From: Octopus sinensis
Taxonomy: Eukaryota
Assembly (NCBI RefSeq): GCF_006345805.1
Contig: NC_042997.1
Span: 181,412,001 to 181,476,000 of the forward strand
Direction: 5' to 3'
DNA length: 64,000 nucleotides
In this document: positions 3,464 to 62,929 of the stretch, piece after piece
Layout: each line of letters begins with the position of its first letter
Numbering within the stretch: the stretch's first letter is position 1
Made by a program: the position numbers and the translations under genes
Notes under the pieces: generated by a model
The model's input: only the letters and a program-made list of their open reading frames with translations
Databases searched by the model: none
What the model was told of the DNA's origin: nothing

Positions 3464-3509
<46 letters not shown>

Positions 3510-5132: not shown

Positions 5133-5197
5133 GAATATACTATAATAAACAACGACCCTGCTTCGCTTAAGGGTCGTTGTTTATTTATAGTATATTC

Positions 5198-6217
5198 AGG
5201 CCTGCTGATGATTACGTAAGTATGAAATCACTGTGATACAGGTCTATATATTTTTAAATGTCTTTCTTTGAAAAATTGCATTCGGTGGGATTAGTAATAT
5301 TTTTGGTTTTTTTTGGTAGAAATGACTGATTGTCCCTCTTAGCGTATGGCGTGTATGTAGATGCCTCCTGGCATGTATGTATAATGCCCTCTATATATAA
5401 ATTAATATGTTCAATAAGAAATAATTATTTTCGAAATTTTTCTCTTATGAGGTTTTTACGCTATCTACCTGACAATTCTTGTTAAGTTTTCCTTATTAAG
5501 TAGTTGTCCTAATTGCTAAATTTTTATTCCGAAAAAACTTTTCTTCTCCCGAAATGCAATTCGTAAAGTTTGCCATTCATCCGGATATAGTATATATAAA
5601 ACCACCCATGTGCTTCGTTGATGTTGATCAGTTAGCTGATCGGCTTAAGCGAAGCAGGGTCGTTGTTTATTTATAGTATATTCAGGCTGCTGCTGCTGAT
5701 GATTACGTAAGTATGAAATCACTGTGATACAGGTCTATATATTTTTAAATGTCTTTCTTTGAAAAATTGCATTCGGTGGGATTAGTAATATTTTTGGTAG
5801 AAATGACTGATTGTCCCTCTTAGCGTATGGCGTGTATGTAGAATGCCTCCTGGCATGTATGTATAATGCCTCTATATATAAATTAATATGTTCAATAAGA
5901 AATAATTATTTTCGAAATTTTTTCTCTTATGAGGTTTTTACGCTATCTACCTGACAATTTCTTGTTAAGTTTTCCTTATTAAGTAGTTGTCCTTAATTGC
6001 TAAATTTTTATTCCGAAAAAACTTTTCCTCTCCCGAAATGCAATTCGTAAAAGTTTTGCCATTCATCCGGATATAGTATATATAAACCCACCCATGTGCT
6101 TCGTTGATGTTGATCAGTTAGCTGATCGGCTTAAGCGAAGCAGGGTCGTTGTTTATTTATAGTATATTCAGGCCTGCTGATGATTACGTAAGTATGAAAT
6201 CACTGTGATACAGGTCT
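5198..6217 (+). ncRNA. Three type-I hammerhead ribozymes (5198-5245, 5684-5736, 6170-6217)
   Basis: Same motif on the plus strand: CTGATGA core, GAAA, 7-bp stem I, predicted AUA cleavage triplet. The middle copy has a CTG expansion in stem I. Confidence 0.88.
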
Positions 6218-6479
6218 ATATATTTTTAAATGTCTTTCTTTGAAAAATTGCATTCGGTGGGATTAGTAATATTTTGGTAGAAATGACTGATTGTCCCTCT
6301 TAGCGTATGGCGTGTATGTAGAATGCCTCCTGGCATGTATGTATAATGCCCTCTATATATAAATTAATATGTTCAATAAGAAATAATTATTTTCGAAATT
6401 TTTTCTCTTATGAGGTTTTTACGCTATCTACCTGACAATTTCTTGTTAAGTTTTCCTTATTAAGTAGTTGTCCTAATTG

Positions 6480-6513
<34 letters not shown>

Positions 6514-17410: not shown

Positions 17411-17885
17411 AAGGCGGCGAGCTGGCTGAATCGTTAGCACATCGGGAAAAATTCTCAGCGGCATTTCGCCCGTTTTTATTTATTTATTTTTTCCCCTGAG
17501 TTCAAATACTGCCGATGTCTACTTTGCCTTTCATCCTTTCGAGATCGATAAAATATATACCTATTTCTTTATTACCCACAAGGGGCCAAACACAGAGGGG
17601 ACAAACAAGGACAGACATAGGTATTAAGTCGATTACATCGACCCCAGTGCATAACTGGTACTTAATTTGTCGACCCCGAAAGGATGAAAGGCAAAGTCGA
17701 CCTCGGCGGAATTTGAACTCACAACGTAACGCAGACGAAATACCGCTAAGCATTTCGCCCGGCGTGCTAACGTTTCTGCCAGCTCGCCGCCACTAAAATA
17801 TATACCAATTAAGCACTGGGGTCGATGTAATCAACTTAACCCTTCTCCCGAAATTGCTAGCCTTGTGCCAAAATTTTGAAAGCAC
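17411..17885 (+). mobile_element. tRNA-derived SINE (old-tail type) interrupted by an antisense Tx1-tailed SINE (17562-17793)
   Basis: TSD TAAAATATATACC at 17549-17561 and 17794-17806. Confidence 0.85.
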
Positions 17886-18980: not shown

Positions 18981-20173
<1,193 letters not shown>

Positions 20174-21157: not shown

Positions 21158-21251
<94 letters not shown>

Positions 21252-21252
<1 letters not shown>

Positions 21253-21446
21253 GCGAGTGTCGCGTTGCTCCCAAGTAACTATGCCGTCCCGAATCGACCT
21301 TGAGCGACTTCAACAGAACCGAAGCATTCTATAGGGGATTAGTGGAGGAGAGGTACGACGACGATCTCGGGGCGAACCTGGGCGTCGACGAGGAATACTT
21401 GGACCGCCTATTCAAGACGACTTTCGGGCCGGGACCTATGGACAAC
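21252..21446 (+). pseudogene. Internal ORF2 fragment of a second Tx1-like family embedded in (TCTA)n
   Basis: FYRGLVEERYDDDLGANLGVDEEYLDRLFKTTFGPGPMDN aligns to LYSGLVESECDDGLGSTLGLGFIQLDSLFHRTFGLRTLDN in ORF2 at 45040-48441. Confidence 0.8.
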
Positions 21447-21538
<92 letters not shown>

Positions 21539-23489: not shown

Positions 23490-23767
23490 AATTCCGATCA
23501 ACGGACATTCTGCTCATGAAATTAACGTGAAAGAAGCTGAGCACTCCACAGACACGCGTACCCGTTCTCCGGGGCATTCAGCGTGACACAGAATTTGACA
23601 AGGCTGGCCCTTTGAATTACCGGTACGACTTATTTTTGTCAGCTGAGTGGACTGGAACAACGTGAAATAACATGACCTGCTCAAGGACACAACGTAACGC
23701 CGGGAATCGATATCACGAGCTAACGATCATGAACCAAATACCCTGACCACTAAGCCACGCGCCTTCA
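23490..23767 (-). mobile_element. tRNA-derived SINE (family also at 51801-52112)
   Basis: Reverse-complement head GAAGGCGCGTGGCTTAGTGG, plus shared body sequence. Confidence 0.7.
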
Positions 23768-24133: not shown

Positions 24134-24799
24134 ATGGAGGCATTTGAAATAATCGAACCTCTGGATATAACGAGTCAACGAGGGAACATTTACATTGTCA
24201 CTTGACTTACAAGAAATAACGAAAAAATTATCCCCAAATCACAACCTGCCATTTTAGAGGGTGTCTCTACATAGTCATTCGATATGCTAGAAACAGTAGC
24301 AAAAACATCTCTTAAATTACATTCAAACGGTTTGAAAAGCGTCACATTGAATGATGTAGTCCTAAACTGAAATTGCCTGAGAGAAGGATGAGATGCTGAA
24401 AGTCTTTGATCATAAGTCTACGCAGTCAGTGTTAAGCTGAAATTAAGCATGAACAGGAAAGATGCATTATGTAATGCAGTCCCATTTACATTTCGTATGA
24501 ATAAAACGCTGGATAGTCACGAGTGGAACGCCATTAATCATGAATTTGTTCGACTCGTGCTGATACGGATGCTAAATAACAAATAGTGGTGAGAACATGC
24601 TATGCTATAGTTTGTTTAGCTTTATTGTGTAGAATAAGGGGTTTTAAATTTCAAAATTACAGCACAAGATGTCTAAGAATACAAGATGTAAGATAAATAG
24701 ATAAAAAAAGCTACATAAGTGGGAGATAGATGGACAGCTAGCTAGCTAGCCAGATAGATAAATGGATAGAGAAACAGACAGAGAAACAGACAGACGGAC

Positions 24800-24882
<83 letters not shown>

Positions 24883-25283
24883 AAGAAAGAGATAGAGAGA
24901 GAGAGAATTACAGCTTGAAATGTCGACAAAATGCCTCGGTTGATCCGGCGTATCATACATCTGCTCAAGCGTAGGTGATTAAGAACAACTACAACAGCAA
25001 GGGCGATGACGATGACTCGAACGACAATAATGTAATCGCTCTTCGGCCAGAAAAAGAAACAAAAACAAAAATACAAAGCAGGCCAACCAAAATGTTCCTG
25101 ATTAAAAAGAAAGGTAACATTGAGTAATTATAACACACACACACACAAACACATACATCACGGTACGGCACCCACATAAGTGGCAGGTTTTAAAAGGGAA
25201 AGTAAGTTGTCCCTTCAGTCCATAGATGGGAGTGACATCTTGGGCAAGGGTCAGCAATACCTTAGATGAAAACATCGGCAGTA
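24134..25283 (-). repeat. Arm 2 of the inverted duplication
   Basis: Reverse complement of 18981-20173. Its right end abuts the truncated mariner. Confidence 0.9.
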
Positions 25284-26466
25284 GTGTATTAATTTTTCCT
25301 TTTGACATTTGATAGCCGTTACTTTTAGCTTACTTTAGAAGCAAATTGCACGTAATTTTATTTACAGCTGTTACTTCAGTGTCACTTTTAGGATGGAGAG
25401 CAAAAACGACCATTTTTGCTATATTTTGCTTTTTTATTTCCATAAAGACAAGAATGCTGATGAGGCTCATAAAGAGATATGTGAAGTTTATGGTACTGAT
25501 TGCTTAACAGAACGCACATGTCAGAAATGGTTTTAAAAATTCCATTCTGGAGATTTTTCACTCAAAGTCAACCAACGTTCTGGTCGACCTACTGAAGTTG
25601 ATGATCACCGAATCAAAGCCATAATTGAATCTGATTGTCATATATATGCAGAGAAGTTAATTTTATTACACACAACAGTTACAAATCGCTTAAAATGTCT
25701 TGGACTCGTTAAGAAGCTCGATATTTGGGTTCCACATAGATTGAAAGAGATTCTCTTAACACAACGAATCAATGTTTGCGATATGCATCTCAAACGCAAT
25801 GAAATCGACCTTCTTTTGAAACTAATCATCACTGGTGATGAAAAATGGATTGTCTACAATAATACAATCGAAAACAATCATGGTCCAAGCGTAATGAACC
25901 AGCACAAACCACATTGAAAGCTGAATTGCATAAAAAAAGTTCATGCTGTCAATTTGGTAGGATTACAAAGGTGTTGTGTGTTTTGAGCTGCTTCCAAGGA
26001 ACCAAGCGATTAATTCAGATGTTTAAAGTCAACAACTAATGAAACTGGGGGAAGCAATAAAAAAAAAAAGGCCAGAATTGGCAGCTCGTGAAGGAATCGT
26101 GTTCCACCATGACAACGCTAGAACACACACGTCTTTGCTAACTTGTGAAAAATTATTGGAGCTTGGTTGGGAAGGGATGTAACATCCAGCATATAGCCCT
26201 GACTTTGTACCATCAGATTACCATTTATTTCGAAGTTTGTAAAATTCTTTGAATGGTAAAACGTTCAATAATGATGATGACCTGAAATAGCACACGCTTC
26301 AGTTTTTGGCTGATAAGGACCAGAAGTTCTATGAGCGCGGAATCATTAAGTTGCCAGAGAGATGGCAAAAAGTATCGAATAAAATTGATTAAAGTTCATT
26401 CTTTGTATGAAAAAAAAAATGACTTATATTTCACACTAAAATACCGAAATTACTTTCCTGCCAGCA
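25284..26466 (+). mobile_element. Mariner (DD34D) transposon with decayed transposase ~25393-26392; 5' TIR missing
   Basis: MESKNDHF..ILLFYF.., RSGRP, ITGDEKW, FHHDNAR and HPAYSPDFVPSDYHLF motifs with stops and frameshifts. Mariner-like 3' end AAATACCGAAATTACTTTCCTGCCA. Confidence 0.9.
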
Positions 26467-28771: not shown

Positions 28772-28989
28772 TGGCAGAAACGTTAGCACGCCGGGCGAAA
28801 TGCGTAGCCGTATTTCGTCTGCCGTTACGTTCTGAGTTCAAATTCCGACGAGGTCGACATTGCCTTTCATCCTTTCGGGGTCGATAAATTAAGTACCAGT
28901 TACGCACAGGGGTCGATGTAATCGACTTAATCCGTTCGTCTGTCCTTGTTTGTCCCCTCTATGTTTAGCTCCTTGTGGGCAATAAAGAA

Positions 28990-28990
<1 letters not shown>
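28772..28990 (+). mobile_element. Tx1-tailed SINE inserted in (TCTA)n
   Basis: Same head, body and tail as 33237-33469. Ends GGGCAATAAAGAAA followed by (TCTA)n. Confidence 0.85.
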
Positions 28991-29058
<68 letters not shown>

Positions 29059-32994: not shown

Positions 32995-33983
32995 AAGGCG
33001 GCATGCTAGCAGAAACGTTAGCACGCCGGGCGAAATGCTTAGCAGTATTTCGTCTGCCGTTACGTTAAAATTCCGCCGTGGTCGACTTTGCCTTTTATCC
33101 TTTCGGTGTCGATAAATAAAGTACCATTTACGCACTGGGGTCGATATAATCGACTTAATCCGTTTGTCTGTCCTTGTTTGTCCCCTCTGTGTTTAGCGCC
33201 TTGTGGGTAGTAAAGAAATATATAATGAATATGAGTAAGGCGGCGAGCTAGCAGAAACGTTAGCACGCCGGGCGAAATGCGTAGCCGTATTTCGTCTGCC
33301 GTTACGTTCTGGGTTCAAATTCCGCCGAGGTCGACTTTGCCTTTCATCCTTTCTAGATCGATAAATTAAGTACCAGTTATGCACTGGGGTCGATGTAATC
33401 GACTTAATCCGTTTGCCAGTCCTTGTTTGTCCCCTCTATGTTTAGCCCTTTGTGGGTAGTAAAGAAATAGGTATTTCGTCTGCCGCTACGTTCTGAGTTC
33501 AAATTTCGCCGAGGTCGACTTTGCCTTTCATCCTTTCTAGATCGATAAATTAAGTACCAGTTACGCACTGGGGTAGCTGTAATCGACTTAATACCTATGT
33601 CTGTCCTTGTTTGTCCCCTCTATGTTTAGCCCCTTGTGGGTAGTAAAGAAATAGGTATTTCGTCTGCCGCTACGTTCTGAGTTCAAATTTCGCCGAGGTC
33701 GACTTTGCCTTTCATCCTTTCGGGGTCGATTAAATAAGTACCAGTTACGTACTGGGTCGATATAATCGACTTAATCCGTTTGTCTGTTCTTGTTTGTCCC
33801 CTCTGTGTTTAACCCCTTGTGGGGAGTAAAGAAATAGGTATTTTTTCCGTCTTTACGTTCTGAATTCAAATACCTTTCACCCTATCAGAGTCAATAAAAT
33901 AAGTACCAGTGGATACTGGGATCGATGTAATCAACTTAACCCCTACCCTGAACTTGCTGGCCTTGTACCAAAAATTTGAAACC
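32995..33983 (+). mobile_element. Nested SINE array: full copy, then head + three Tx1-tailed bodies, then old-tail remainder
   Basis: Junctions AAGAAATA|GGTATTT at 33469, 33653 and 33836 (period ~184). TSD TATAATGAATATGAGT at 32979-32994 / 33221-33236. Confidence 0.9.
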
Positions 33984-34357
33984 AATATAATAAATGCGAA
34001 TGTTTCCATTGGATGACTAGAATATAAATACAAAAGAAAAAAATTATTAATGTCGAATGGAGTTTGAGTAGGCATTTGCTGGTCGATTCGAGAGATGTAG
34101 AATCGAGTAGCAACCTGTGTTTATTTTTTAATCTATTACAGTTCCATTAACATATTATTTCTAGTGAGGCAATTTTCTTCCTTTACATTATATATTCATC
34201 GGCAAAACATGGATGTTATATTTATATGATATAAATGTGTGAAAAATTATGTCTATTTAAAAAAATTCAATACGTTTTTATGATTCTTAAGTTGGCAACG
34301 AAATATTTAGATAGAGGAAGAGGTGTATATCCACAGACACACACAGTGAAAGACAAG

Positions 34358-43200: not shown

Positions 43201-43666
43201 ATCTCCACAATTACATCAGAAATAAGTGCGATAACATTAATCTTGGGCATCCATTATTCTAAAGAAAAAAAAGGCGGCGAGCTGGCAGATACGTTAGCAC
43301 GTCGGGCGAAATGCGTAGCCGTATTTCAGCTGCCGCACATGTGTTCGTGAAGTAAGAATTGCTGTTTCGTGGTGTTAATATTGTTAACAACTGTTGTTTC
43401 TTGTTAAACTGTTGAATAACTTAACTGTTGGAGTTTTCAATTGAAAACACTTAGTGCTTGTGGTAGCACGCGTTGTTCATTCCCCCTTTGGGGGGAAGAA
43501 TGTCGTCTAGCATGGAGCCTACCGTTGGAGCAGAAATACTTGTTTCTCCTGTTGAGAGGAGGAAATACATGTCCGGCGAGGAGCCAACTACAACAAGGAA
43601 ATAGGGGTTTCCCCCGCTACAAGAAGGAATAGCAGAGAGGATAATATATTTGATATTTTTGGAGAT

Positions 43667-45028
43667 GTGTCTGAGAGCTCGTCAGAACTTTCACCAGAAG
43701 AGTTTCCGACTTTGCCAGAGAACAAAGGCATTGTGTCGAAGAGAATAATTGATGTGCCTAGCATCCAGATAGAACCAAAAAATGGAAAAAAAAGTTTTGC
43801 GTTGGCTGCTGGGGGTGGAACCCAGATACTGTCGACGAATAAAAGCGAAATTATGAAATACAGCAAAATGATGGAAATAAATGACAACAGTGTGAAAATT
43901 GAACCTCCGCAAAAGTTATTACAGGAAGAAAAGCAAAAAACAATAATTTTCAAAACATATTGTCTACAAAATAGAAAAATTGAAAGAATGTCAGAAGAGA
44001 AAATAGAAAAGTGCTTAAAGCCAATATTGGGCGACGTAGTATTTCTGAGAAGAGGAAAAAAATTCGGAACGGTGGAAGTAAGGTTCACCAATAAAGAAAT
44101 AGCACACAAGAACTCAGTGGAAACGTTGAAAACGAACGACGTGGAGTTAATACCCTATTATATGGGGATGAGGACGTCGCGAATAAAAATTACAAGGGTC
44201 CCGCCAGAGGTCGAACCTATGTGGTTGTTGGCGGCAGTCCTAATCAAAGAGGTAGAAAAAATTACTCTCCTCCAGGCTACCGCTACGGAAAACCCACGCT
44301 GGGATGGTAAAACAATTAATCTTCTCATTCAAGCGGACCCTAAAATAATTCAAACAATTCCTGAGACAATTGAGGTAGGGGAGGAGAACCTCGTGGTGTT
44401 TGTTGAGGGCCGAAAACCTCGATGTTTTTTATGTGGTCAATTAGGCCACATTCGAAGGAACTGCAAGGAAAATGAAGAAGAGGAGGAAGAGGAGAAAAAA
44501 GACAAAGAGGAAGAAGATAAAGAAGAAACAGATGAGAAAAAAACAACAAACAAAAGAAAAATACAACCAGCAACCCAGCCGAGAGCGGCGACTACTACAG
44601 AACAACGACCAAAAAAGACTGCCAGAAGAGAAAAAGAAGAAAAAGGCATAATAGCCGTATACACTAAAGATACTGAGCTCATGAGAGACATTCAACTCAT
44701 AAAGACTGTAAAAAAAATTGATAACCTTTCAGAGGAATTTATCAATTACGACATATATGAAGTCTCAAATAAGACTTATAGAATTCTACAAAATAAGTAC
44801 AGAAAGACTGTATCTTCATTGAGATTAGATTTTAACAAGTCGATATTTCATGGATTACCAGCTCCGATCCCGCGAGAAAAGGAAAAGGTGGAGATTCCCC
44901 CTCCACCTGATAATTCTGTGTCGGTGGTGAGACGGGATTTTGACAAATCTATTTCCCAAGACCGTCCACCTCCGACCCTGGATAAAAAAAAGGTGGAGGG
45001 TCCCCCTCCACCGGACAATCCTAATTAA
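43667..45028 (+). CDS. Tx1-like ORF1p (Gag-like, CCHC zinc knuckle)
   Basis: 453-codon frame with CFLCGQLGHIRRNC. The true start is probably ATG 43569, with a 1-bp deletion near 43600. Confidence 0.85.
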   Translation: MSESSSELSPEEFPTLPENKGIVSKRIIDVPSIQIEPKNGKKSFALAAGGGTQILSTNKSEIMKYSKMMEINDNSVKIEPPQKLLQEEKQKTIIFKTYCLQNRKIERMSEEKIEKCLKPILGDVVFLRRGKKFGTVEVRFTNKEIAHKNSVETLKTNDVELIPYYMGMRTSRIKITRVPPEVEPMWLLAAVLIKEVEKITLLQATATENPRWDGKTINLLIQADPKIIQTIPETIEVGEENLVVFVEGRKPRCFLCGQLGHIRRNCKENEEEEEEEKKDKEEEDKEETDEKKTTNKRKIQPATQPRAATTTEQRPKKTARREKEEKGIIAVYTKDTELMRDIQLIKTVKKIDNLSEEFINYDIYEVSNKTYRILQNKYRKTVSSLRLDFNKSIFHGLPAPIPREKEKVEIPPPPDNSVSVVRRDFDKSISQDRPPPTLDKKKVEGPPPPDNPN

Positions 45029-45039
45029 ACAGGTAAGTG

Positions 45040-48000
45040 ATGGCTATTCACATTGGTTGTTTAAATGTTCATGGCCTGTTGTCAAGCTGGAAGCAAGGAC
45101 GCTTTCTGAATGACATCAGGTCGAGAAATTTGGATGTAATTGTTGCAACGGAAACCCGGGTGAAGGGGCCAAGAGATCTGCTCCCCCTCCTGAACGGCTA
45201 CGAGAAATACGTTTCTCCGAGTCGGGCGGGAGGTGGGGGTGGGGTGTTGGTCCTACTAAAAAGAAACCGGGTAGCCGAGAAAAAGTTGGTTTTTTCTGAC
45301 CCAGAAGGCAGGCTGGTCGTTCTCGACTTGACATTCAGTTGTGGCAAGACAATCAGGCTGGTCGCTATTTATGCACCAAACATTATTGGCCCGCAAACTG
45401 AATATTTTCGTGGCCTAGGAAAGTTCCTAGCCACGTCGCATTCACTAGTAGTGTTAGGAGACTCTAATACAATATGTGCAGCACACACAGATTGTGTTGG
45501 CTCAAACTCGAACATGAACAGAAAATGTAACACAGGCTTTCGGGATCTGCTAAGTCAATTTCAGCTAGCAGATCCATATAGGTTGGAGCATCCGAACACT
45601 CCACAGTGGACGTGGTCAAATAGTGACGGGTCTACCAGAACATATCTAGATAGGATTTTAATTAGAGAAAAAGATAAGTCCATAGTTGAGTGTCCACAGT
45701 TTTTTCTAGTCAGCTACAGTGACCACAAGATGGTTACCTGTAAACTGACGGTAGATAAGTTGCATAGACAGGGATCTGGCTACTGGAAACTCAATACGTC
45801 CCTTTTGGCGATTGAGGAGTACAGAAAGCGGATCAAGATGTTAATACAGAGGGCATTAACAGGTACCATCATTAATAACAAATGGTGGTACGCCCTAAAA
45901 AGAGCCATCAAATATGAGTCTATTAGGTTTAGCATAAGTTTAGCTAAGAAGGGACGTAAAATAGGAGATGGTCTAGTTAAGGAACTAGAAGAAGCCTGGA
46001 GGACTGGTAATACAGACCAAGCGAGGGTGAAAAGACTGGAGTTAAACCAGCATCTTGAAGCCCACCACATGGGAAGTATTACCAGAGCTAAGTTACGTGC
46101 AATGGGAAGTGAAGGAATCAAAGCCGCTGGATGGGCCCGAGTGGTGGAAGCTCGGCAAGGAAATAGTTCCTCTATTCGGTCTTTGACGAATCAAAATGGT
46201 GTCTTGATAAACGAACCCGAGAAAATGTGTGAGGTCTTTCGGGAGTACTTCGCCCAGCTGTTCGGGGGTGACGGCGGTCCTGGTGGTGGGAGAGCCCTCG
46301 AGGACTTTCTTACCGGGCTGCCGTGCCTCTCGGGGTCGGATGCGGAGTCTTGCGAAGGGCCAATCACACTTGAGGAGGTGATGGAGGCTTTGGCCGATTG
46401 TAAAGCGGGTAAGTCACCGGGACTTGATGGTCTTCCGTACGAGCTGTATAAATGTATGCCAGACTTGTTCGGGCAACTACTGACTGACGTGTACGCGAAC
46501 TGGAAACAGAATGGGTTTATCCCCAGATCTGTGCGCCGGGGAGTAGTGACGTTGGTCAGAAAGGACCCGGACAAGGGGGACGTTCTAGAGAATTTCAGGC
46601 CCATCACTCTGTTAAACGCAGAAGTGAAGATTTTGGCCAAGGTTCTAGCAAAAAGGTTGGCGCGTGTCGCGAATGGTATAGTCGGGGAGGCACAGACATG
46701 TGCCATCCCAGGCAGAACCATTCAGGATACCCTCCATCTTATTCGCTATACCATAGAGAGGTTTGGTAATAAATCTGGCAAAGGTGGGGCATTGGTGCAT
46801 TTGGACCAGTCTAAAGCTTTTGATAGGGTTGACCATCGATACCTAGCGACTGTACTTGCGCGGTTTGGCCTGGGCCTTGGCTTCCTCAGGTGGTTTATCG
46901 CTTTGTACCACAACATTGACTCGATAGTTCGGGTGAACGGTTTCCTTTCGAAGCCGTTCTGCATCAGACGCTCGGTTCGTCAAGGATGTCCGCTTTCACC
47001 ACTTTTGTATGTGATGGCTCTCGAGCCATTACTGCAAAGGTTGAGTGGCATCCCGAGAGAACCAGGACTAGAGGAGTTTGTTACGGCTTTCGCGGATGAT
47101 ATCACTATCAGTGTAACCACAGTGGTACGCCTACGTGAAGTAGGTAAGACTATTGAGGCTTACGAGGAGGTAGCAGGAGCAAAGATTAACCGGGAAAAGT
47201 CGGTCGGCTTGCAGCTCGGCACCTGGGTTGGCAAGTCGATGCCTTCAGACAGTGTTGTTAGGCGCTGGACGGAGGGACCGGTTAAGTTGCTGGGAGTCTG
47301 GTTTGGACCAGGCCTCCAGATAGAGAAGAACTGGACGGAGGTATTGAGCAGGGTGGCTGCAGTAGTCAAGACTTGGTCTTGGCGGTGGCTATCCCTGAAA
47401 GGGAGGGCGGAAGTGGCCAATGTGTTTATCGCATCGGTCATTACCTACCGCCTGACTGTCGTGCCCTGTCCGGATTCGTGGTTGATCAGGTTGGAGAGAC
47501 AGCTCTTTCGCTTTTTGTGGAAGGGCAGGTCGCCACTTGTGAAACGCTCTGTCTGCTGTCAAAAGCCTTTAAATGGAGGTTTAGGGATGCCTTGGTTAAT
47601 GATGCGCAGACATGCGTTGAGGTTGAGGCACCTCTGGATTCTCCTGGATAGTGAACGGGTGTGGTCTCCGCTGGCCAGACAAATGTTCCCTGAGTTCAAG
47701 AGTTTTTGCGAACAGGAAGCCTGGTGTTCTCGTAGACCGAGGTCGAGTGAGTGGCATAAAGAGTGCCGTAAGGCCCTCTTGCTGTTCCGGCGCTCGGGCA
47801 ACGCCAGCGGTGGGGGTTCCACACGGATTTTATATAGTGGGTTGGTAGAGTCTGAATGCGACGATGGCCTGGGGTCGACTCTAGGTCTCGGATTTATTCA
47901 ACTGGACAGCTTGTTTCATCGTACATTCGGGTTGAGAACGTTGGACAACTTCCAAAAGTCCTTAACCTGGCAATGCTACAGAGGTGCCTTGCCCGTTTGG

Positions 48001-48441
48001 GATAAGCTCGCAAGACATGGTAAACGTCAGTCGCCGACCTGTCCAAGATGCGGTGGGGACAGGGAAACCGTCCCTCACGCTATTGTTCAGTGTCCGGAGA
48101 TAACTGAAATGTGGGCTTATGCTGAACATCTGTTGTCCGGCGAAGGAAGAGTACGGCTGTCGACTGAGTCAATTATAAAAATTGACCCACCGGGAGTTCT
48201 AACGAACGAAGGTAAGAATTGTTTTCTCACGGTTGTAGCAATAGCAAAAGAGGCTGTATGGAATACTAGGATAAAAGGAATTAAGACAGGCAACTTTATC
48301 TCTGGTGACAATTTACGATCCTTTTTTTCTTTTCATTTGAAAAGGAAACTGTGGCTGGAGAAGAGGTGTCTGTCAGAGTGTACGTTCCAAAAGAGATGGA
48401 AGTATGTTGCACGAGTGTTGTGCGTGCAAGGAACCGTGTGA
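45040..48441 (+). CDS. Tx1-like ORF2p: APE endonuclease, reverse transcriptase and C-terminal zinc finger
   Basis: Uninterrupted ORF with CLNVHGL, ATET, LGDSN, YLDR, SDH; KSPGLDG, RPITLLN, LDQSKAFD, VRQGCPLSP, FADD; CPRC..ETVPHAIVQC. Confidence 0.96.
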   Translation: MAIHIGCLNVHGLLSSWKQGRFLNDIRSRNLDVIVATETRVKGPRDLLPLLNGYEKYVSPSRAGGGGGVLVLLKRNRVAEKKLVFSDPEGRLVVLDLTFSCGKTIRLVAIYAPNIIGPQTEYFRGLGKFLATSHSLVVLGDSNTICAAHTDCVGSNSNMNRKCNTGFRDLLSQFQLADPYRLEHPNTPQWTWSNSDGSTRTYLDRILIREKDKSIVECPQFFLVSYSDHKMVTCKLTVDKLHRQGSGYWKLNTSLLAIEEYRKRIKMLIQRALTGTIINNKWWYALKRAIKYESIRFSISLAKKGRKIGDGLVKELEEAWRTGNTDQARVKRLELNQHLEAHHMGSITRAKLRAMGSEGIKAAGWARVVEARQGNSSSIRSLTNQNGVLINEPEKMCEVFREYFAQLFGGDGGPGGGRALEDFLTGLPCLSGSDAESCEGPITLEEVMEALADCKAGKSPGLDGLPYELYKCMPDLFGQLLTDVYANWKQNGFIPRSVRRGVVTLVRKDPDKGDVLENFRPITLLNAEVKILAKVLAKRLARVANGIVGEAQTCAIPGRTIQDTLHLIRYTIERFGNKSGKGGALVHLDQSKAFDRVDHRYLATVLARFGLGLGFLRWFIALYHNIDSIVRVNGFLSKPFCIRRSVRQGCPLSPLLYVMALEPLLQRLSGIPREPGLEEFVTAFADDITISVTTVVRLREVGKTIEAYEEVAGAKINREKSVGLQLGTWVGKSMPSDSVVRRWTEGPVKLLGVWFGPGLQIEKNWTEVLSRVAAVVKTWSWRWLSLKGRAEVANVFIASVITYRLTVVPCPDSWLIRLERQLFRFLWKGRSPLVKRSVCCQKPLNGGLGMPWLMMRRHALRLRHLWILLDSERVWSPLARQMFPEFKSFCEQEAWCSRRPRSSEWHKECRKALLLFRRSGNASGGGSTRILYSGLVESECDDGLGSTLGLGFIQLDSLFHRTFGLRTLDNFQKSLTWQCYRGALPVWDKLARHGKRQSPTCPRCGGDRETVPHAIVQCPEITEMWAYAEHLLSGEGRVRLSTESIIKIDPPGVLTNEGKNCFLTVVAIAKEAVWNTRIKGIKTGNFISGDNLRSFFSFHLKRKLWLEKRCLSECTFQKRWKYVARVLCVQGTV

Positions 48442-49895
48442 ATAGACGAGGAAAAAAAAAAAGGAAAAATAAAAAGGTATCAGCGGTAGATCGGGGCTTG
48501 TGGGATCGGAGCGTAACTTGATCATCGCTTCATTTGTATTGTTTTTGTACTGTGTATTCCATTCGATTTTTATGTATTGTATTTTATTTTTGATGTCACA
48601 TTTATGTAAAATCATATCGATTCACTGATCCCATCAGTTGTACTGTCCATATCTATGTTTGGCCCCCGGTGGGCAATAAAGAAATTCGTATTTCGTCTGC
48701 CGTTACGTTCTGAGTTCAAATTCCGCTGAGGTCGACTTTGACTTTCATCCTTTCGGGGTCGATAAAGTAAGTACCAGTTACGCACTGGGGCCGATATAAT
48801 CGACTTAATCCGTTTGCCAGTCCTTGTTTGTCCTCTCTGTGTTTAGCCTCTTGTGGGTAGTAAAGAAATAGGTATTTCGCTCATCGCTATGTTCTGAGTT
48901 CAAACTCTGCCGAGGTCGACTTTGCTTTTCATCCTTTCAGGGTCGATAAATTAAGTGCCAGTTGAGTACTGGGGGCGATGTAATCGACTATCCCCTTCTC
49001 CCAAACTTCAGGCTTTGTGCCTGTTATAGAAAGGATTATTCTAAAGGAAAACTGTGGGAATTCGTAACACTCGTGCCTTTAGAAGAGAATTAGGTGTGTA
49101 ACTAAATCTTGTTCGTTGTTGCTCGCCACATGATTGTTTTTTTAGATATGATTGCGGAATCCGAATTTAAAGATATGTTGATTATATATTTAAAGACAGA
49201 TGACAAGAATGATTTCAAATAGAAACTATATTGAGCGTTTGGCTCATTGATAGTTTACTCCAATTTTCAAACCTAATTTTTCAAAAGATCCACCCACCAC
49301 GTGTGTCTAATTTTAAAGCCAGAACAAGTTTTTGACAGATATTAGTCAGCATATTTATTAATTTTATATATTGCTTCAGTGATTCTCGTGGCTGGGAATG
49401 GGGTTGTAGTGGGGAAGAGTAAGATTGAAAAGGGGCGGAGAAATTGCTATCATAATAAAATAAAAAATGACGAAACTAAATAGTATAAATAATTTATTCT
49501 ATTATTTGATTCTATCTATACATATCATTGTTCAGTATACTAAAAATTCTACCTGAATACAGAGTGATTTTAAAATTTTGTATGAAGCAGAAAAATGTCT
49601 CCATATTTCCGTCCTGATTAGCATTTTGCTCAGCAGTCGAAACGATGACGGTTGAAACACTCGATAAGATTTAACTTGGGTTTAATAATAAAAATAATAA
49701 AAAGACTGAAAAAAAAATCCTAATTTTAGCACTAGGTCACAAAGAGATTATATAACTTATACTATTCAGAACTTGACTGCCGTTTATTTTGTTGATTTGG
49801 GAAGTAAAGTGAACGACGGCGGTATCTGAACCTAAAATGAAAACATTTGTAACTAAATGCACAAAATATTTTGTCAGGTTCTTTACCGTTTAATG

Positions 49896-50147: not shown

Positions 50148-51800
50148 GTTTATTTAATTTAATCTTTGTCTTTAAATTTTAGTCATTTGGAGTCTTTGTT
50201 GATTTGAGGATGACTTATTCCTATGCATTTCTTGATGTTAAAGTATTTATGTTCACATCAATAGTTCTCAGTACGATTGCAGATCATTTGAAAGCAAAAA
50301 GATACAAAATATTTTCAGTTTTGATCACAAAGTTAAAGCTGTTTAAATATTGTCACTTCTCTCGAAAAATGGGGTCATATTTCACTCGGCTTGTATAATT
50401 AGTCTGAATTAATTTAGATTCTTATCTTTAATGTAAGATGCGATACCGAAGAATAAACTTTCACTTTAAAATGACTGATTGAAATGAAATTCACTTTAAA
50501 ATGACTGTTTGTCGGCCACCCTACACGCAGTGTATACTATTTCTGCCATATTTTTCAATATAATAGTTTTGTAACTTAGGCATAAAGCAGGAACTGTCGA
50601 ATATATCGACATCCAGTAGAGAAATATTAGTGGTTTTGTCAATCTGTAGGATTTGAAATTAGAACGCAAAGGAATGCAACTAAATACCAAAAAATGTTTT
50701 GTATAACGCTCTACCTACTTTATTACTCTACCACTCCCTTGTTGATTTGATTTGTAACAATGGCGCAAATCTATCGATTCTGCTGGAGGATGGGAATAGT
50801 ATGCTAAATCGATCTTAGTACTTGACTGGTATTTATTTTATCAGTCATAACTAACGTATTTATTTTATCAGTCATGAAAGCCGAAGGTGAATAAATCTGG
50901 GATGTAAAAGGGTCTAACTAAACACAGTCGGACATTTTAATCTGCAAATTTAATAGTAATTTATAACATCATTGATATATCTGAATTTCCATTGCAGAGT
51001 TTCAGAATTTAGTTCAATTCTGAGACCTAGAGATAATTACTCAAGATTTTGTACATCAGTAATGGAGATAGAGACATTGCTTTTTGAATATAATTAATTA
51101 TATAAAAAATGAAAAATAATAAAAATAATAAAGATTCTGAAAAATAACAACTACAATAAAATATTATTAGATACCATGGAATTTTGTTTCAATCAATTGT
51201 TTTCTTGTATGTTAATTAAAAGACATGGATTGCAGAATGTTTTAAAATTATATTAATGATTCGTTTCTTGATACAACAGTCAACAGTTATTTCTAAAGTG
51301 CAAAGAGACATGCGTGATGTTGAATAGTGAGGCGAGAGAAAAATAGATTGAATTCTTAGTTGAAAGTTCATGATGATGATAATTGTTGTCCAACAAACCA
51401 CTGGAACCGATGATGGAATTCTACTGAGGATTTATATCTTCACGTTTCAGTTACAAATGTTCTCACGTATTCAGTAAAATTACTTCGAGATAGAAAGTTA
51501 GGCAGAAAGAAATAAGATTAGAGAGAGTACGTCAAATTATACGTTACTAAGTGATTCCTTCGTCATAACTAAGACACACACTAGATATATTAACACTAAC
51601 GTAAATATATTTCTTGTGGATGATGTCCTTGAATAATTTCTAAATATTTAAATTTTCTTTTGCTAACATCTACTTCAGCAATAAAGTGAAAGTTAAGCCA
51701 TCTTTTGCTGAAGAAAGCAAAATAAGACCGAAACATCTCCAGAATCGTTTCTTGTATTTAGAGAAAATAATATTAGTCATTGACTAATAACGTCTTTAGT

Positions 51801-52490
51801 GAAGGCGCGTGGCTTAGTGGTTAGGACATTCTGCTCACGATCGTGAGTTCAATTCCCGGCCACGCGTTGTGTCCTTGAGCAAGACACTTTATTTCACGTT
51901 GCTTCAGTCTATTTAGCTGACAAAAATGAGTAGTACCCGTATTTCAAAGGGCCACCCTTGCCACACTCTGTGTCACGCTGAATCTCCCTGAGAGCTATGT
52001 TAAGGGTACATGTGTCTGTGGAGTGTTCAGCCACTTGGACGTTAAATTCACGTGCAAGCTGTTCCGCTGACCGGATCAGTAGGGATCCTCGTCGTCGTAA
52101 CCGACGGAGTGCTCCTATTGTGGAGGCGCAATGGCCTAGTGGTTAGGGCAGCAGCCTCAAGGTCGTAAGATGACGGTTTCAATTCCCAGACCGGGCGTTG
52201 TGAGTGTTTATTGAGCGAAAACACCTAAAGCTCCACGTGGCTCCGTCAGGGTGGGGGTGGAAAACCCTACTGTACACTTTCACCACGAATTTATCTCTTT
52301 CTTTCTGTTTATGTTGTATCTGTATTTCAAAAGGCCAGCCTTGTTACACTTTGTGTCACGCTGAATCTCCCCGACAACTATGTTAAGGGTACACGTGTCT
52401 GTGGAGTGCACATTAATTTCACGAGCAGGCTGTTTCGTTGATCGGATCAACTGGAACCCTCGTCGTCGTAACCGACCGGGTGCCACAAAG
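51801..52490 (+). mobile_element. Two adjacent tRNA-derived SINEs with different heads and a shared 3' part (51801-52112; 52123-52490)
   Basis: Both end ...GTCACGCTGAATCTCCC...CCTCGTCGTCGTAACCGAC. Confidence 0.75.
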
Positions 52491-52774
52491 AGTCTTTCCT
52501 CACTGTATATTTCTAATTTTTTTTTTTATGTTTTGCGTGTTAGATAATTTAACACTAACATGTACATCTCTACAAGCTAAACACATCATAGAGTATCTGA
52601 CTATAGCTATACACTGTAAAAACATTGATTTTAATTATGGAGAATCAGTACAGGGTCATAGTACAACCCTTTAACCTATTGACTGACATGCAACCACTTT
52701 ACAGGTCCGGAATTCTCCTTCAGTGATAAATTACATTCTTTGAAGGAATTTCTTATTTTCTATAAGAACAAACC

Positions 52775-53007
52775 TATTTCTTTACTACCCACAATGGACT
52801 AAACACAGAGAGGACAAACAAGGACAGACAAACGGATTAAGTCGATTATATCGACCCCAGTGCGTAACTGGTACTTAATTTATCGACCTCGAAAGGATGA
52901 AAGGCAAAGTCGACCTCGGCGGAATTTGAACTCAGAACGTAGCGACAGACGAAATACTGTAAAGCTTTTCGCCTGGCGCGCTAACGTTTCTGCCAGCTCG
53001 CCGCCTT
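52775..53007 (-). mobile_element. Tx1-tailed SINE
   Basis: TSD TATAAGAACAAACC at 52761-52774 / 53008-53021. Confidence 0.88.
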
Positions 53008-54116: not shown

Positions 54117-55525
54117 AATCCAAACATGAAAACACAACACGAGGACGTGGAAGAAGTATAGTGTTATTGGATGCTCAGGAAAGGAAAGAAAGAAGGAGGA
54201 CTTCACGTTCCGAGCGGAGCTCTTCGTCAGAAACATAGGAAGAGAAAATATCCAAGGAAGGGAATTCGGAGGAATAAAAATCGCCAACAATACACACGCG
54301 GTCACAAATAAATGTATTTATATATATATATATGATGGTTTTTGTTAACGAGTGTCGATTTTTACAATAAGCCCTCGACTGAAAAAAAGTAGGTTTTCCC
54401 GTACGCATGGGACTCGAACCCATACCTCTTTGTTTTCGCGACAATAGTTGTCGCGAAAACAAAGAGGTGTCGGATCGAGTCCCACGCGTACGGGTTGAGA
54501 GGTTGAGTTGGGGAAGAAGCTGTGGACCAAGAGGTTTCGTAGGTTGTGGGCTCGTTTGAAGGAGGGGAGGGGTCGGTTAGGGAAGATGTGCGAAGTGGAG
54601 GGGTCGGACTGGAGTTGCCGGAAGGATCGGAAAATGGAGAGGTAGGGTGGTGGGGTAGTAGGTGAGGGGAAACGGGAGACGGCGGGGTGGGTGCGGGGGG
54701 TGAGAGCAGATGCACGGTCCGCGGAACGTGCTCTGGCAAAGGCGGTGTGGATAGTCGTGAGGGGATATCCACGTAGGATGAAGTGGTGAGCCATGAGTTG
54801 AGACTGAGTCTCAAAGTCATGGTCGTCACTACAGAGCCTGCGTAGATGGAGGAATTGGGAATAGGGGATGGAAAGCTTGGTGTGTTTAGGGTGGGAGGAA
54901 GAGAAGTTGAAGTATGAGTGAGTCTGTGTGTTTGTAGTGGATGGAGGTGGTGAGAGTGGAGTGATGAATGCTGACTGAAATGTCAAGAAAGGAGACAGAG
55001 GTGTCAGTGATAATGCAGGAGAAGTGGAGGGCAGGATGGAAAGATTTGACAAAAGAGAGGAAGGAGTCTAGATGTTCGCGGGAGAGTGAGGTCGTACCGA
55101 TACAGTCGTCAACATAACGGCCGTATAGTTCGGGAGTAGGACCAGTGAAACTTGAGAAATATTTGGGCCTCAACGTAGCCAACGAACAGGTTCGCATAGT
55201 TGGGCCCATTCTCGTTCCCATGGCCACTCCCGAGATTTGCTGGTAAAAATCACCCGCGAACGAGAAGCAGTTGAGTGAGAGGACAAGTTCAGCCAGACGA
55301 ACGAGTGTGGATGTGTCGGGTTAGGGGTTGGGTCGAAGGTCAAGGAAATGTTGGAGTGCACGCAGCCCCTCGTGGTGAGAGATCACCGTGTAAAGGCTCT
55401 GGATGTCGAAAGTGAAGAGAAGTTTAGAGGGGCTAGGAGGGAAAGAGAAAGAGTTAAACAAACGAAGCGCGTGATTGGTGTCATGGATGTGAGAGGGGAG
55501 GGAATAGTGTATGACAGGGAAGTTA
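54117..55525 (-). mobile_element. Decayed Penelope-like retroelement: RT/thumb remnant ~54495-55525 plus 3' pLTR fragment 54117-54310 with a mutated hammerhead
   Basis: TFDIQSLYT, AMGTRMGP, YGRYVDD, VSFLDI and SIPYSQFLHLRRLCS motifs across frameshifts. No GIY-YIG domain visible. Confidence 0.88.
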
Positions 55526-58344: not shown

Positions 58345-58762
58345 AAGGCGGCGAGCTGGCAGAACCGTTAGCACGCCGGGCGAAATGCTTAGCGGTATTT
58401 CGTCTGCCGCTACGTTCTGAGTTCAAAATCCGCCGGGGTCAACTTTGCCTTTCATCCTTTCGAGGTCGATTAAATAAGTACCAGTTACGCACTGGGGTTG
58501 ATATAATCGACTTAATCCGTTTGTCTGTCCTTGCTTGTCCCTTCTGTGTTTAGCCCCCTTGTGGGTAGTAAAGAAATAGGTATTTCGTCTGTCTTTACGT
58601 TCTGAGTTCAAATTCCGCCGAGGTCGACTTTGCCTTTCATCCTTTCGGGGTCGATAAATTAATTACCAGTTACGCACTGGGGTCGTTGTAATCGACTTAA
58701 TCCGTTTGTCTGTCCTTGTTTGTCCCCGCTATGTTTACCCCCTTGTGGGCTATAAAGAAATA
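58345..58762 (+). mobile_element. Tx1-tailed SINE dimer (head + 2 bodies)
   Basis: Junction AAGAAATA|GGTATTTCG at 58578. TSD AGAAGCTGTGCCAC at 58326-58339 / 58763-58776. Confidence 0.9.
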
Positions 58763-60370: not shown

Positions 60371-62695
60371 TATATGATAAAGGAGCATTTTTTTCAATAA
60401 TAATTACCATAAAATGTATCATCTTGCCTTTTCTTTTTGTTATTTTCACTGCTATAAAAGAGGAACCTATTATACATTTGATTACTGAATAAAAAGGGAA
60501 GAAATTACCACAGTTGTGTTTTTGTACCATTATTATCCTAGCGGTGCCATATGGCACCTAGGTTTATTTAAGAATGTATTTTGAATTTTACATTTCTGGC
60601 TTTAAATCAATGTAACTGGTGTTTAAACTAACCCTTAAATAAAGTTTCAGCAAAATCAGAAATAAAAGGTTATTCTTGCAACAAATGGGTTAAAACGTTC
60701 ACTTATTTTGTTTATATTTTCCCTGAATAATTCGTTCATATAATTTGAAAATTATTTGCTTGTGAAGGTATTCAACTCTGTATTTATGTGTTCTAATTTC
60801 GTTGCATAATAAAAGAAAACAGTTAAAAAAATACAGATCAGAAGAAATAAATGAATGTTAGTAGACGCTCAAGCGCCAAGGGATGAGACGGCGTCTGAGA
60901 AGTTTAATTTTGGAGCCAAACTAACGGAAATAATTTAAGATAATTCTCTATAAAAATATTCCACGTTTCTGAGCGCGCGTTTTTATTACACTCTCTCACA
61001 CCCTCACTATCTCACTCCACTATACTTGCACACTTCTACACATCTTTACCCCCCACCATCAAATACATGCACCCCACAAAAAGACTTCTAATACCATCAT
61101 GCTCCTTACTTCCTAGCTCCCACATTGAATCGCTTTCCCATCTGGCCTTTTATCCTTTGAATTTTTTTCTCCAATCACCTTTTCTCATACATTCTTCTCT
61201 TTTAGTTTTTGGCTTCTACCTTTTTTCTGCTGAAGGACTTGTCTCCAAAGCGTCAAGTTTCTTTCCTTCTTTTTTAAGAATGAAAATAATATAACATTTA
61301 TCAAAGCTTGTCCTTCCTATGCTGTTTTCGTTCTGAGCTCGGTGCCTTCTTGATACATACATATATACATATATACATGTGTACACACATACACACGCAC
61401 ACACACGTGTGTGTGTGCGTGAACATGCATACTGATGTTTGAACGAGCATACGTGGCACAAAACTTTGAGTAACAACGCAATGAATCATAAAACTTATCC
61501 CTGAGAAATGTCAAGTCTACATGTACTGAGCAAGTTTTCTTTCGCTTGCGAACAAACACGTGTATACATATGCATACTCGCATACATCAATTTCTGTTAA
61601 CTCACAAAGAAGCAATACATTTCAGAACTCATGCATAAACAGAGAGTATTCTTTTATGCATTATTACCATCTGAAGGGTTCTAAACTGCCAGTTTCTTGT
61701 TTACGCTCCGTAATCAAAGTTTTTGTTCTCGTAAATTATTGGTATTTGAGTATATTTTGAAATATTGCGTGAACGTTATCAAGAAAACGCTTATGTCTCT
61801 ATTTTTAAAAATCTTGCGAATGTTACATATGAAAAACGCATATCTCACGCTTACGTTATGTATTTCATTTCTGGCTCTCATGAGAATACTCCAAACAATC
61901 TGCTTTCTCATCATTGCATTCAGAACTCAAACCTTATACAAGGGAGTTCACTTTAAGAACTGTTCGCCCAGAAATACAATTGGTTTCTTAAGTAATTCTT
62001 TAAAATAATTTTTTGAAAATACTTCGTAACCAACGATTTTTGCCCGAACCAGGTTGGAAATCAAGGAAGCTTGTACTTAGCTCCATGCATTTAAAGTTGT
62101 TTTGTTCAAATCGTTAATCCCCAGAAAAAAGGTTTTTAATATTTGCCTAAAAAAAATCACTTCGCAATTTGATTTGAAGCTGCTGTTCCTTTAGGGTTGT
62201 GTGTTATCTTCAACTGACAAGGTACTTTTGAATTGGCGAAAACTTGTATCAGGAAAAGAGCGTATAAATTTTGACAAAAGTAGCGAATATTTACTTTAAA
62301 TTTAAACCGAAAAATGAATATATGCGTTTATAAAATACATTATTCAACTTTAATTTAGTTGCTCCAATTTACGGTTTTGATTCATCTCTCTTGTTTGTTT
62401 CTAATTTAGCGACTCTACTGCCAAGTTTGCTAAACTGTTACCAACCCATGAATTTTGCAGATTGATGAGTGATGCTGGTCAGCTACACTGCTTCATTCAG
62501 CCTTGCTGCATTATAACCTCTGATATATCACTCAAAATCTTTATGGGCTGAACCTTGACAGAGTTCCTATTCAATATCTTACTATGCATGTGCTCCGGCG
62601 AAATTAACCCCTTCCGTCACTTTGTCCAATGCATTGGACAATTCTTCAGTTTAAATTACCAAAGAGATATAATTTGTAATTGAGTCACAGCTACC

Positions 62696-62929
62696 TATTT
62701 CTTTACCACCCACAAGGGGCTAAACACAGAGGGGACAAACAAGGACAGACAAACGGATTAAGTCGATTACATTGACCACAGTGCGTAACTGGTACTTAAT
62801 TTATCGACCCCGAAAGGATGAAAGGCAAAGTGGACCTCGGCGGAATTTGAACTCAGAACATAACGGCAGACGAAATACGGCTACGCATTTCGCCCCGCAT
62901 GCTAACGTTTCTGCCAGCTCGCCGCCTTT
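62696..62929 (-). mobile_element. Tx1-tailed SINE
   Basis: TSD TTGAGTCACAG(C/T)T(A/G)CC at 62680-62695 / 62930-62945. Confidence 0.88.

What the first reader, a model, noticed from the sequence alone, without database searches (positions are those of the whole stretch)
48630..48870. SINE variant shares the LINE's 3' stem-loop tail: a Tx1-driven LINE/SINE partnership visible side by side
Seen: the LINE ends TGTCCATATCTATGTTTG-GCCC-CCGGT-GGGC-AATAAAGAAAT. One SINE subfamily ends TGTCCCCTCT(A/G)TGTTTA-GCCC-CTTGT-GGG(C/T)-A(A/G)TAAAGAAAT, with the same 4-bp stem/5-nt loop and no poly(A). Other, more diverged copies with the same head and body carry an unrelated tail (..CTTGCTGGCCTTGTACCAAAAATTTGAA at ~33950; also ~17855 and ~49010). 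Known: stringent LINEs mobilise SINEs through shared 3' stem-loops, mostly documented for L2/CR1/RTE. Inference: the SINE swapped tails to hijack a Tx1 element, plausibly as a by-product of the LINE inserting into it.
Basis: partly seen in the sequence, partly recalled or inferred. Interest (0 to 1): 0.8.

Follow-up and report, generated by a model that had tools for sequence, protein, structure and literature searches.

The report
Jumping gene inserts into its parasite
A young family of self-copying DNA elements in this (likely octopus) genome almost always lands at one exact spot inside a short parasitic repeat that carries the same kind of tail, so the element and its close relatives likely both spread the parasite and use it as their landing pad.

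Summary
The shared tail is real, but the main feature lies just outside the flagged interval. The LINE (43336-48686, L1/Tx1 group) is inserted inside the SINE, between its A- and B-box-like motifs, with a 16-bp target-site duplication. All 41 of 41 full-length copies examined sit at this site. Genome-wide, 137 exact tails and 130 exact tail-plus-target junctions were counted. An older sister family uses the same site.

The tail is not private to this LINE. About ten related families with other targets end in the same covarying 4-bp stem-loop, and sister families F and G match the SINE tail better (scores 66-70 and 62, against 52). The Tx1-type-tailed SINE is the youngest class (5.7% diverged, against about 18%), with at least 91,341 copies. 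A quarter of these tails are followed by the LINE's target site.

The 'unrelated' old tails keep the same loop and a 4-bp stem. Insertion at this site cannot itself create the SINE's head-body-tail order. Target-derived letters on the RNA ends likely help choose the site (inferred). Mobilisation is untested. A SINE-targeted LINE sharing that SINE's tail was not found in 10 literature searches; Repbase could not be checked.

The parts
43336..48686 (+). Full-length L1/Tx1-group LINE, family 'A', 5351 bp, young
   Evidence: 40 other copies 97.8-99.9% identical over their best alignment
43556..45028 (+). ORF1 open frame (490 aa, CCHC zinc knuckle); this copy lacks one base near 43592 relative to other copies, whose frame is 520 aa
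   Evidence: (zf-CCHC E 8e-5), 24, 67 table 4
45040..48441 (+). ORF2, intact, 1133 aa: APE endonuclease, reverse transcriptase, zf-RVT
   Evidence: best PDB hit human L1 ORF2p E 1.9e-64, R2 E 1.6e-20
48639..48686 (+). Conserved LINE 3' end shared with the SINE; stem-loop 48662-48674, AATAAA 48675-48680, no poly(A)
43273..43335 (+). Head of the host SINE (A-box-like motif 43283-43293), cut off from its body by the LINE
   Evidence: box consensus recalled
43320..43335 (+). 16-bp target-site duplication, 5' copy (differs from the 3' copy at positions 9-10, an allele seen in two other loci)
48687..48702 (+). 16-bp target-site duplication, 3' copy
48687..48870 (+). SINE body (B-box-like motif 48714-48724) with the Tx1-type tail 'N' (stem-loop 48846-48858)
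48871..49039 (+). Second SINE unit with old tail 'O2' (stem-loop 49010-49022), joined at the same target site
43253..43269 (+). Outer target-site duplication of the whole nested array, 5' copy; the 3' copy is at about 49035-49051
   Evidence: 12-nt exact core at 43253 and 49035; extent read by eye
32995..33984 (+). SINE array: full N copy, then head-N-N-N-O1, with junctions at the LINE's target site
58345..58762 (+). SINE dimer head-N-N with a ~14-bp duplication around the whole
52772..53007 (-). Dispersed N-tail SINE; duplication begins with GGT
62692..62928 (-). Dispersed N-tail SINE, 16-bp duplication
17557..17791 (-). Dispersed N-tail SINE inserted in an O1-tail SINE of opposite orientation; duplication begins with GGTAT
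28772..28991 (+). N-tail SINE ending in (ATCT)n, the target of sister families B and C
21249..21476 (+). Remnant of sister family B beside (ATCT)n

Best explanation
This is a young L1/Tx1-group LINE that inserts at one exact site inside the genome's abundant tRNA-type SINE, while that SINE carries a tail taken from the same LINE lineage and is likely copied by its enzymes. Shown: site specificity, a 16-bp duplication, a lineage-wide stem-loop tail, the N tail being youngest, and a quarter of SINE tails sitting at the same site. Inferred mechanism: (1) ORF2 protein binds the 3' stem-loop and its endonuclease nicks the SINE head between the A and B boxes. (2) The LINE RNA has no poly(A) copy and likely reads a few bases into the target, which pair with the nicked primer. 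(3) The RNA 5' end likely begins within the duplicated target, so the cDNA anneals to the 16-nt overhang, giving precise and mostly full-length insertions. (4) The SINE likely gained its tail by a template switch from a member of the A/F/G/I clade, closest to F. It would be mobilised by several such families: relaxed F-like ones for dispersed copies, and the A lineage (A2 at the time of the burst) for at least the founding copies at the target site. (5) SINE RNAs from such copies likely carry a target-derived 3' extension that steers new copies to GGTAT-starting sites and into other SINE heads, building arrays. Each LINE insertion would separate one SINE's A box from its B box, so the SINE supplies a growing and probably harmless landing pad.
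For: Specificity: 30 of 30 3' ends, 30 of 30 5' ends, 41 of 41 full-length copies, 29 of the first 30 exact tails by position, 130 junctions against 137 tails genome-wide (overlapping, not nested patterns). Background is 68 target-like sites in 600 kb of random DNA. Older family A2 uses the same site at 7 of 7 identifiable 5' ends and 3 of 3 3' ends. Tail: 13 ends, 94% of cells paired, 4 of 4 pairs with compensatory changes, 0 of 500 shuffles; A/A2, F, G, I form one clade at 100/99. Age order. RNA 5' end carries target: the two duplication copies never differ at positions 1-7 but often at 8-16 (38 pairs), with recurrent alleles in the 5' copy. SINE 3' extension: 98 of the first 100 listed tandem junctions read AG rather than following the target's C/G polymorphism. 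In 10 of 43 elements the upstream duplication copy starts with GGT, 9 with GGTAT, against a background of 0.0008. Flank class tracks SINE tail allele (31:25 against 1:21, p 2e-5; random sample only p 0.02). RNA-target pairing is described for I factor, R1Bm and R2Ol (passage in PMC6007223).
Against: No mobilisation, cleavage or RNA-end data. The SINE tail matches F, G and J better than A, and no LINE with an exactly SINE-like tail was found (0 matches to one pattern). About three quarters of SINE tails are not at the LINE's site, unlike 95% for the LINE. The link between LINE sub-lineage and target allele was strong in the discovery set (16 of 16 against 7 of 25, p 2.6e-6, groups drawn post hoc) but not significant in held-out copies (7:1 against 8:7, p 0.18), and those alleles also mark older copies. 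Some arrays share private variants between neighbours (L141, L183), which points to DNA-level duplication. Tx1 membership was not tested against named references.
Confidence: 0.72

Rival explanations
1. The SINE is driven only by relaxed sister families (F-like). The A lineage merely uses the SINE as a target and never mobilises it; the shared tail reflects common ancestry of the LINE families.
For: F matches best, including the CTTGT loop and both GGGTAGT and GGGTAAT variants. F has varied flanks and a 17-bp duplication, like dispersed SINEs. A's loop differs (CCGGT) and was seen in only 1 of 122 SINE tails scored.
Against: SINE tandem junctions fall in exactly the same register as A's insertion site (22,679 exact). 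The SINE's last bases match A and G, not F. A2 was active at about the age of the SINE burst (pairwise 80-91%).
Confidence: 0.3
2. One reading: family A alone drives the SINE, which got its tail when A inserted into it.
For: Shared tail and shared site; one SINE copy carries A's exact stem-loop (L280), so such swaps occur.
Against: Better matches in F, G and J. Most A copies are under 1% diverged against 5.7% for the SINE. Insertion at this site cannot give head-body-tail order. Three quarters of SINE tails lie elsewhere.
Confidence: 0.1
3. SINE tandem arrays arise by unequal recombination, or by copying whole arrays from a few masters, not by repeated targeted insertion.
For: Private variants shared among neighbouring units in L141 and L183. 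One duplication flanks whole arrays. The near-constant AG junction fits descent from one founder.
Against: Other arrays mix subfamilies and old tails (window 33237-33984). The founder junction still coincides with the LINE's site. The test of head age in N-to-O arrays was inconclusive (heads younger than old singles, but last units also somewhat younger, n=10).
Confidence: 0.35
4. The tail is a SINE remnant captured at this locus, or the LINE took its tail from the SINE.
For: None beyond the nesting.
Against: 137 exact copies, and homologous ends on about ten families with unrelated targets.
Confidence: 0.02

Closest known systems
Crocodilian Tx1-Mar / SINEU (Kojima 2015, PMC4494074; parts 2-4 of 5 and passages read)
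   Same: Tx1 LINEs target another repeat; a SINE shares the target preference to a variable degree (13-90%); tandem SINE insertions at the target.
   Different: There the target is a third element (Mariner-N4) and no LINE with SINEU-1's 3' end was found. Here the target is the SINE itself, and tail and stem-loop are shared.
Target-specific Tx1 families: Tx1L in Tx1D, Keno in U2 snRNA genes, Kibi (TC)n, Koshi (TTC)n (as described in PMC4494074); Dewa in tRNA arrays (recalled)
   Same: APE endonuclease, two ORFs, strict site choice in a multicopy sequence; sister families here also target (TC)n, (ATCT)n and (ATT)n.
   Different: The target is a retroposon that depends on the LINE lineage; no such target appears in the passages read.
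Stringent SINE/LINE pairs with a common 3' stem-loop (L2, CR1, RTE; plant L1 with ZmSINE) (Ohshima 2013, PMC3747384, passages)
   Same: Shared 3' end with a covarying hairpin.
   Different: All five mentions of Tx1 in that review lie in the text passages, none in its table of 58 pairs, and 'octopus' does not occur. Here the tail is shared with a whole radiation of families.
SINE superfamilies that change tails (MetaSINEs, PMC4824008, passages); octopus OK/OR1/OR2 (Ohshima and Okada 1994, not read)
   Same: One head and body with several tails; template switching proposed.
   Different: Partner LINEs of MetaSINEs were unknown there. Whether this SINE is OK, OR1/OR2 or a Meta member could not be tested.
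R1Bm, R2Ol, I factor: RNA-target pairing in priming (passage in PMC6007223); R2 co-transcription with its target (PMC4494074)
   Same: Target-derived RNA ends aid precise integration.
   Different: Here it is inferred from allele patterns only, and would act on both ends and on the SINE too.

Membership tests
Tx1 clade non-LTR retrotransposon | APE-type endonuclease plus RT in ORF2, separate ORF1 | tested here: met
Tx1 clade non-LTR retrotransposon | ORF2 closer to the L1 group than to other clades | tested here: met
   L1 ORF2p E 1.9e-64 over residues 5-867, R2 E 1.6e-20; zf-RVT present. Only L1 and R2 are represented among the hits.
Tx1 clade non-LTR retrotransposon | RT phylogeny groups it with named Tx1 elements rather than L1 | tested here: inconclusive
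   No named Tx1 reference was returned; tree has unnamed outgroups only
Tx1 clade non-LTR retrotransposon | Target-sequence preference (common in the clade) | tested here: met
Stringent SINE/LINE pair | Homologous 3' ends | tested here: met
Stringent SINE/LINE pair | Conserved stem-loop with compensatory changes | tested here: met
   (structure taken from these sequences; one hand-picked copy per family; B and C out of register by one base)
Stringent SINE/LINE pair | This LINE family is the best match to the SINE tail | tested here: not met
   F 66-70, G 62, J 56, A 52
Stringent SINE/LINE pair | Tail-dependent trans-mobilisation | not testable with these tools
   needs a reporter assay
tRNA-derived SINE (SINE2) | A and B boxes in the head, short, dispersed, target-site duplications | tested here: met
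   box-like motifs read from sequence against a recalled consensus; about 235 bp; duplications in 29 of 43 elements; 91,341 exact tails
tRNA-derived SINE (SINE2) | Head homologous to a tRNA | tested here: inconclusive
   no Rfam or ARAGORN hit
MetaSINE / octopus OK, OR1, OR2 | Central domain matches the published consensus | not testable with these tools
   consensus not found in the 2 supplement files searched; file 1 not searched

The most novel reading that the evidence does not exclude
A closed loop between a LINE lineage and its own SINE parasite. The LINE lineage has kept strict specificity, through at least two successive families, for the promoter of the SINE that steals its machinery, disabling one SINE per insertion. 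Both elements inherit target choice partly through RNA: target bases carried on the transcript ends decide, to single-base resolution, where the next copy lands. The SINE thereby builds its own arrays and multiplies the LINE's landing sites.
Probability: 0.4. Interest if true: 0.78.

Novelty: new variant of a known kind. Interest (0 to 1): 0.62.

Why it matters
Site-specific LINEs normally target rRNA, snRNA or tRNA genes, microsatellites or unrelated transposons. A LINE that targets the SINE depending on its own lineage turns a parasite into a self-renewing safe site, and possibly limits it. The system also gives a tail-sharing partner for the L1/Tx1 group in an animal, and a likely driver for a SINE with an estimated 250,000 units (55 in 600 kb); SINEs are about 12% of the O. 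vulgaris genome (PMC13282606, passage). About ten sister families (55-65% ORF2 identity to this one where measured) use different targets, and several copies have both frames open. That makes a natural series for testing how endonuclease and RNA ends share the job of target choice, and a compact LINE giving precise, mostly full-length insertions.

Tried and rejected
Search for a LINE with an exactly SINE-like tail: 0 matches to one pattern. Partners of the old tails: only 2 of 53 O2-like and 2 of 43 O1-like motifs in held DNA lacked a SINE body, none a LINE end; O2 matched families D/E weakly in one of two copies. Named Tx1 references: none. Expression: no RNA holder on record was listed; contigs cannot show RNA ends, so nothing is concluded on transcription. 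Head-replacement test in arrays: inconclusive. Held-out test of allele inheritance: same direction, not significant. Two outputs (the minus-6 allele and head divergence in hosts) had an offset error and were discarded. The first tail classification mislabelled some O2 as O1 and was redone. Rfam and ARAGORN found nothing in the head. Identifying the SINE by published consensus failed. Earlier findings of the scan: none. The idea that the first duplication base is overwritten from RNA at both ends was judged unlikely, because it tracks a host allele 8 nt beyond the duplication as in free SINEs (7 of 18 against 1 of 22 in hosts; 7 of 30 against 1 of 21 in free copies).

Full report
SETTING. The window lies in G000 (2.72 Gb). 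An octopod host is inferred from the repeat content (recalled) and from the nearest named ORF2 relative, an Argonauta hians protein at 62%. Family letters A-J and tail classes N, O1, O2 are my own labels.

THE OBSERVATION. The quoted ends are present. The LINE spans 43336-48686. ORF2 is intact (1133 aa; endonuclease, RT, zf-RVT). ORF1 has a CCHC knuckle and lacks one base near 43592 relative to other copies. The SINE head is 5.35 kb upstream at 43273-43335 and its body resumes at 48687, so the LINE is nested in the SINE.

SITE SPECIFICITY. A query from ORF2 and the 3' UTR that excluded the tail and flank gave 40 scored matches. All 30 that were fetched end in the tail and continue into the same SINE position; one has a short extra repeat at the junction, two share a flank and may be one locus, and one is the window. 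All 30 fetched 5' ends follow the matching SINE sequence. The window plus 40 full-length loci have both ends at the site with a 16-bp duplication, 41 of 41. Genome-wide there are 137 exact 29-mer tails with a control of 0 and 130 exact tail-plus-target 32-mers. Of the first 30 tails by position, 29 are at the site and one is a SINE carrying A's stem-loop; none of the 29 is 5'-truncated within 1.5 kb, though two have internal breaks. Target-like sites number 68 in 600 kb of evenly spaced random DNA, so chance is excluded. An older family, A2, has a different 5' UTR and ORF1 but 84-93% nucleotide identity in ORF2 and the 3' part; it uses the same site at 7 of 7 identifiable 5' ends and 3 of 3 3' ends among 11 loci examined. 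One contig from a run with another organism label crosses the 3' end into the SINE site.

THE TAIL IS LINEAGE-WIDE. Related families were found with other targets: B and C in (ATCT)n, D and E in (ATT)n, H in (TC)n, G inside another retroelement's coding region, F with varied flanks, and single examples I and J. All end in a related hairpin. On 13 hand-picked ends, 94.2% of cells pair, all 4 pairs show compensatory changes, and 0 of 500 shuffles reach the covariation score; the structure was taken from these sequences, and B and C are out of register by one base. A C-terminal ORF2 tree of 27 rows joins A/A2, F, G and I at 100/99. Local scores against one SINE tail were F 66-70, G 62, J 56, A 52, others 30-50; F or G ranked first and A below them for all four N copies tested. 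The direction is therefore LINE lineage to SINE, and the donor is closest to F but ends like A and G. No exact donor was found.

AGES. Median body divergence in the random sample was N 5.7% (n=55), O2 17.8% (n=17) and O1 18.7% (n=30); 21 of 123 units were unclassified. A copies differ from the window copy by 1-44 substitutions in about 5.3 kb, in a set chosen for similarity; older copies at 87-98% exist. A2 loci are 80-91% identical pairwise, about the age of the N burst. The old tails are not wholly unrelated: they keep the CTTGT loop and a 4-bp stem with swapped pairs, although O1 has no alignment signal. I put homology with the lineage's hairpin at about even odds.

HOW THE SINE INSERTS. 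There are 91,341 exact N-tail 24-mers, and 22,679 (24.8%) are followed by the LINE's site in the same register. Of the first 100 listed, 98 read AG at the junction, whereas LINE targets split C:G 23:18. Of 43 elements ending in an N tail (7 window, 36 random), 29 gave a duplication-like match of 12 nt or more. In 10 of them the upstream copy starts with GGT, 9 with GGTAT, against a background of 0.0008. Flank class follows the SINE tail allele: dispersed AGGT against other flanks was 31:25 for T alleles and 1:21 for C alleles, p 2e-5 among 139 units; in the random sample alone 8:9 against 0:9, p 0.02. This fits masters whose RNA carries a 3' extension that pairs with the new target (inference). 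Some arrays look locally duplicated instead.

LINE RNA ENDS. In 38 duplication pairs (3 with indels dropped), mismatches by position were 0,0,0,0,0,0,0,6,3,3,2,2,1,16,6,4. The 5' copies carry recurrent alleles (14, 3 and 2 loci), while private variants are sometimes in both copies. This fits a heteroduplex between cDNA and the target overhang (inference). Three sub-lineages sat only in C-type targets (16 of 16, against 7 of 25), with no endonuclease change common to them. The held-out test was not significant (p 0.18), so this remains a lead.

The site lies upstream of the SINE body. A truncated insertion there yields head plus tail, not head-body-tail, so the swap needs a template switch or a separate insertion at the end of the body (inference). 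L280 shows that an A-type hairpin can end up on a SINE.

COMPARISON. The closest case is Tx1-Mar/SINEU, with a shared third-party target and no shared tail (PMC4494074, parts 2-4 of 5 and passages). Tail changes in SINE superfamilies are described with partners unknown (PMC4824008, passages). A review of 58 SINE/LINE pairs names Tx1 only in its text (PMC3747384, passages). Octopus repeat surveys report L1-Tx1 and abundant SINEs, and the passages read give no pairing or targets (PMC13282606, PMC8967140). Also seen as passages: PMC4758252, PMC8869645, PMC4640811, PMC5804259, PMC6007223. Ohshima and Okada 1994, Kojima and Fujiwara 2004, Christensen 2000, Anzai 2005 and Fujiwara 2015 were not read. 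Ten searches found no report of a LINE targeting a SINE that shares its tail. Repbase, Dfam, subscription papers, one supplement file of PMC4824008 and the supplements of the other papers were not seen and could hold a prior description. Tx1 membership rests on architecture, L1-group affinity and targeting, not on a tree with named references.

VERDICT. The feature is real and richer than reported: a SINE-specific LINE whose lineage supplied the SINE's tail. New variant of a known kind; interest 0.62.

Noticed in passing
L255, L256 (G000:C18 near 4.73 Mb and 3.87 Mb): Family G is inserted at the same point in both loci, inside what looks like the restriction-like endonuclease region of another non-LTR retroelement (Hero/R2-like, recalled): a second Tx1-like family targeting a retroelement.
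   Followed up: partly
L101-L130, L221-L240, L253-L260: Radiation of sister families targeting (ATCT)n (B, C; 10,120 first-look candidates for a B query), (ATT)n (D, E) and (TC)n (H, often in tandem).
   Followed up: partly
L291-L315: Family F flanks start with CACT in one subfamily and mostly CAACT in another, and several share a longer flank; this may be RNA-carried target bias or insertion into a further repeat.
   Followed up: partly
L241-L252: The SINE-targeting lineage has swapped its 5' UTR and ORF1 at least twice (A, A2, and a third type in L241/L250) while keeping ORF2, as recalled for mammalian L1.
   Followed up: partly
L023, L036, L141, L246, L248: A second tandem junction near head position 15, where N and O2 tails join the head through a short match.
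   Followed up: no
L280: SINE body ending in family A's exact stem-loop at a non-target site: a possible recent tail swap.
   Followed up: no
window 3493-6491: About 480-bp tandem repeats with an inverted block (palindromic arrangement around 5170), 95-99% identical.
   Followed up: no
window 18981-20173 and 24134-25284: A 1.2-kb inverted pair, 88% identical; nearby 25537-25917 encodes a mariner-like transposase fragment (by eye).
   Followed up: no
window 54175-55320 (minus strand): Broken reading frames resembling a Penelope-type reverse transcriptase (by eye, recalled motifs).
   Followed up: no
window 51800-52483 and 23493-23767: A different tRNA-type SINE family, possibly the CORE-type OR1/OR2 (recalled).
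   Followed up: no
window 17411-17791: An N-tail SINE inserted antisense into an O1-tail SINE at a GGTAT-starting site in its body; a similar arrangement is seen in L091 and L026.
   Followed up: partly
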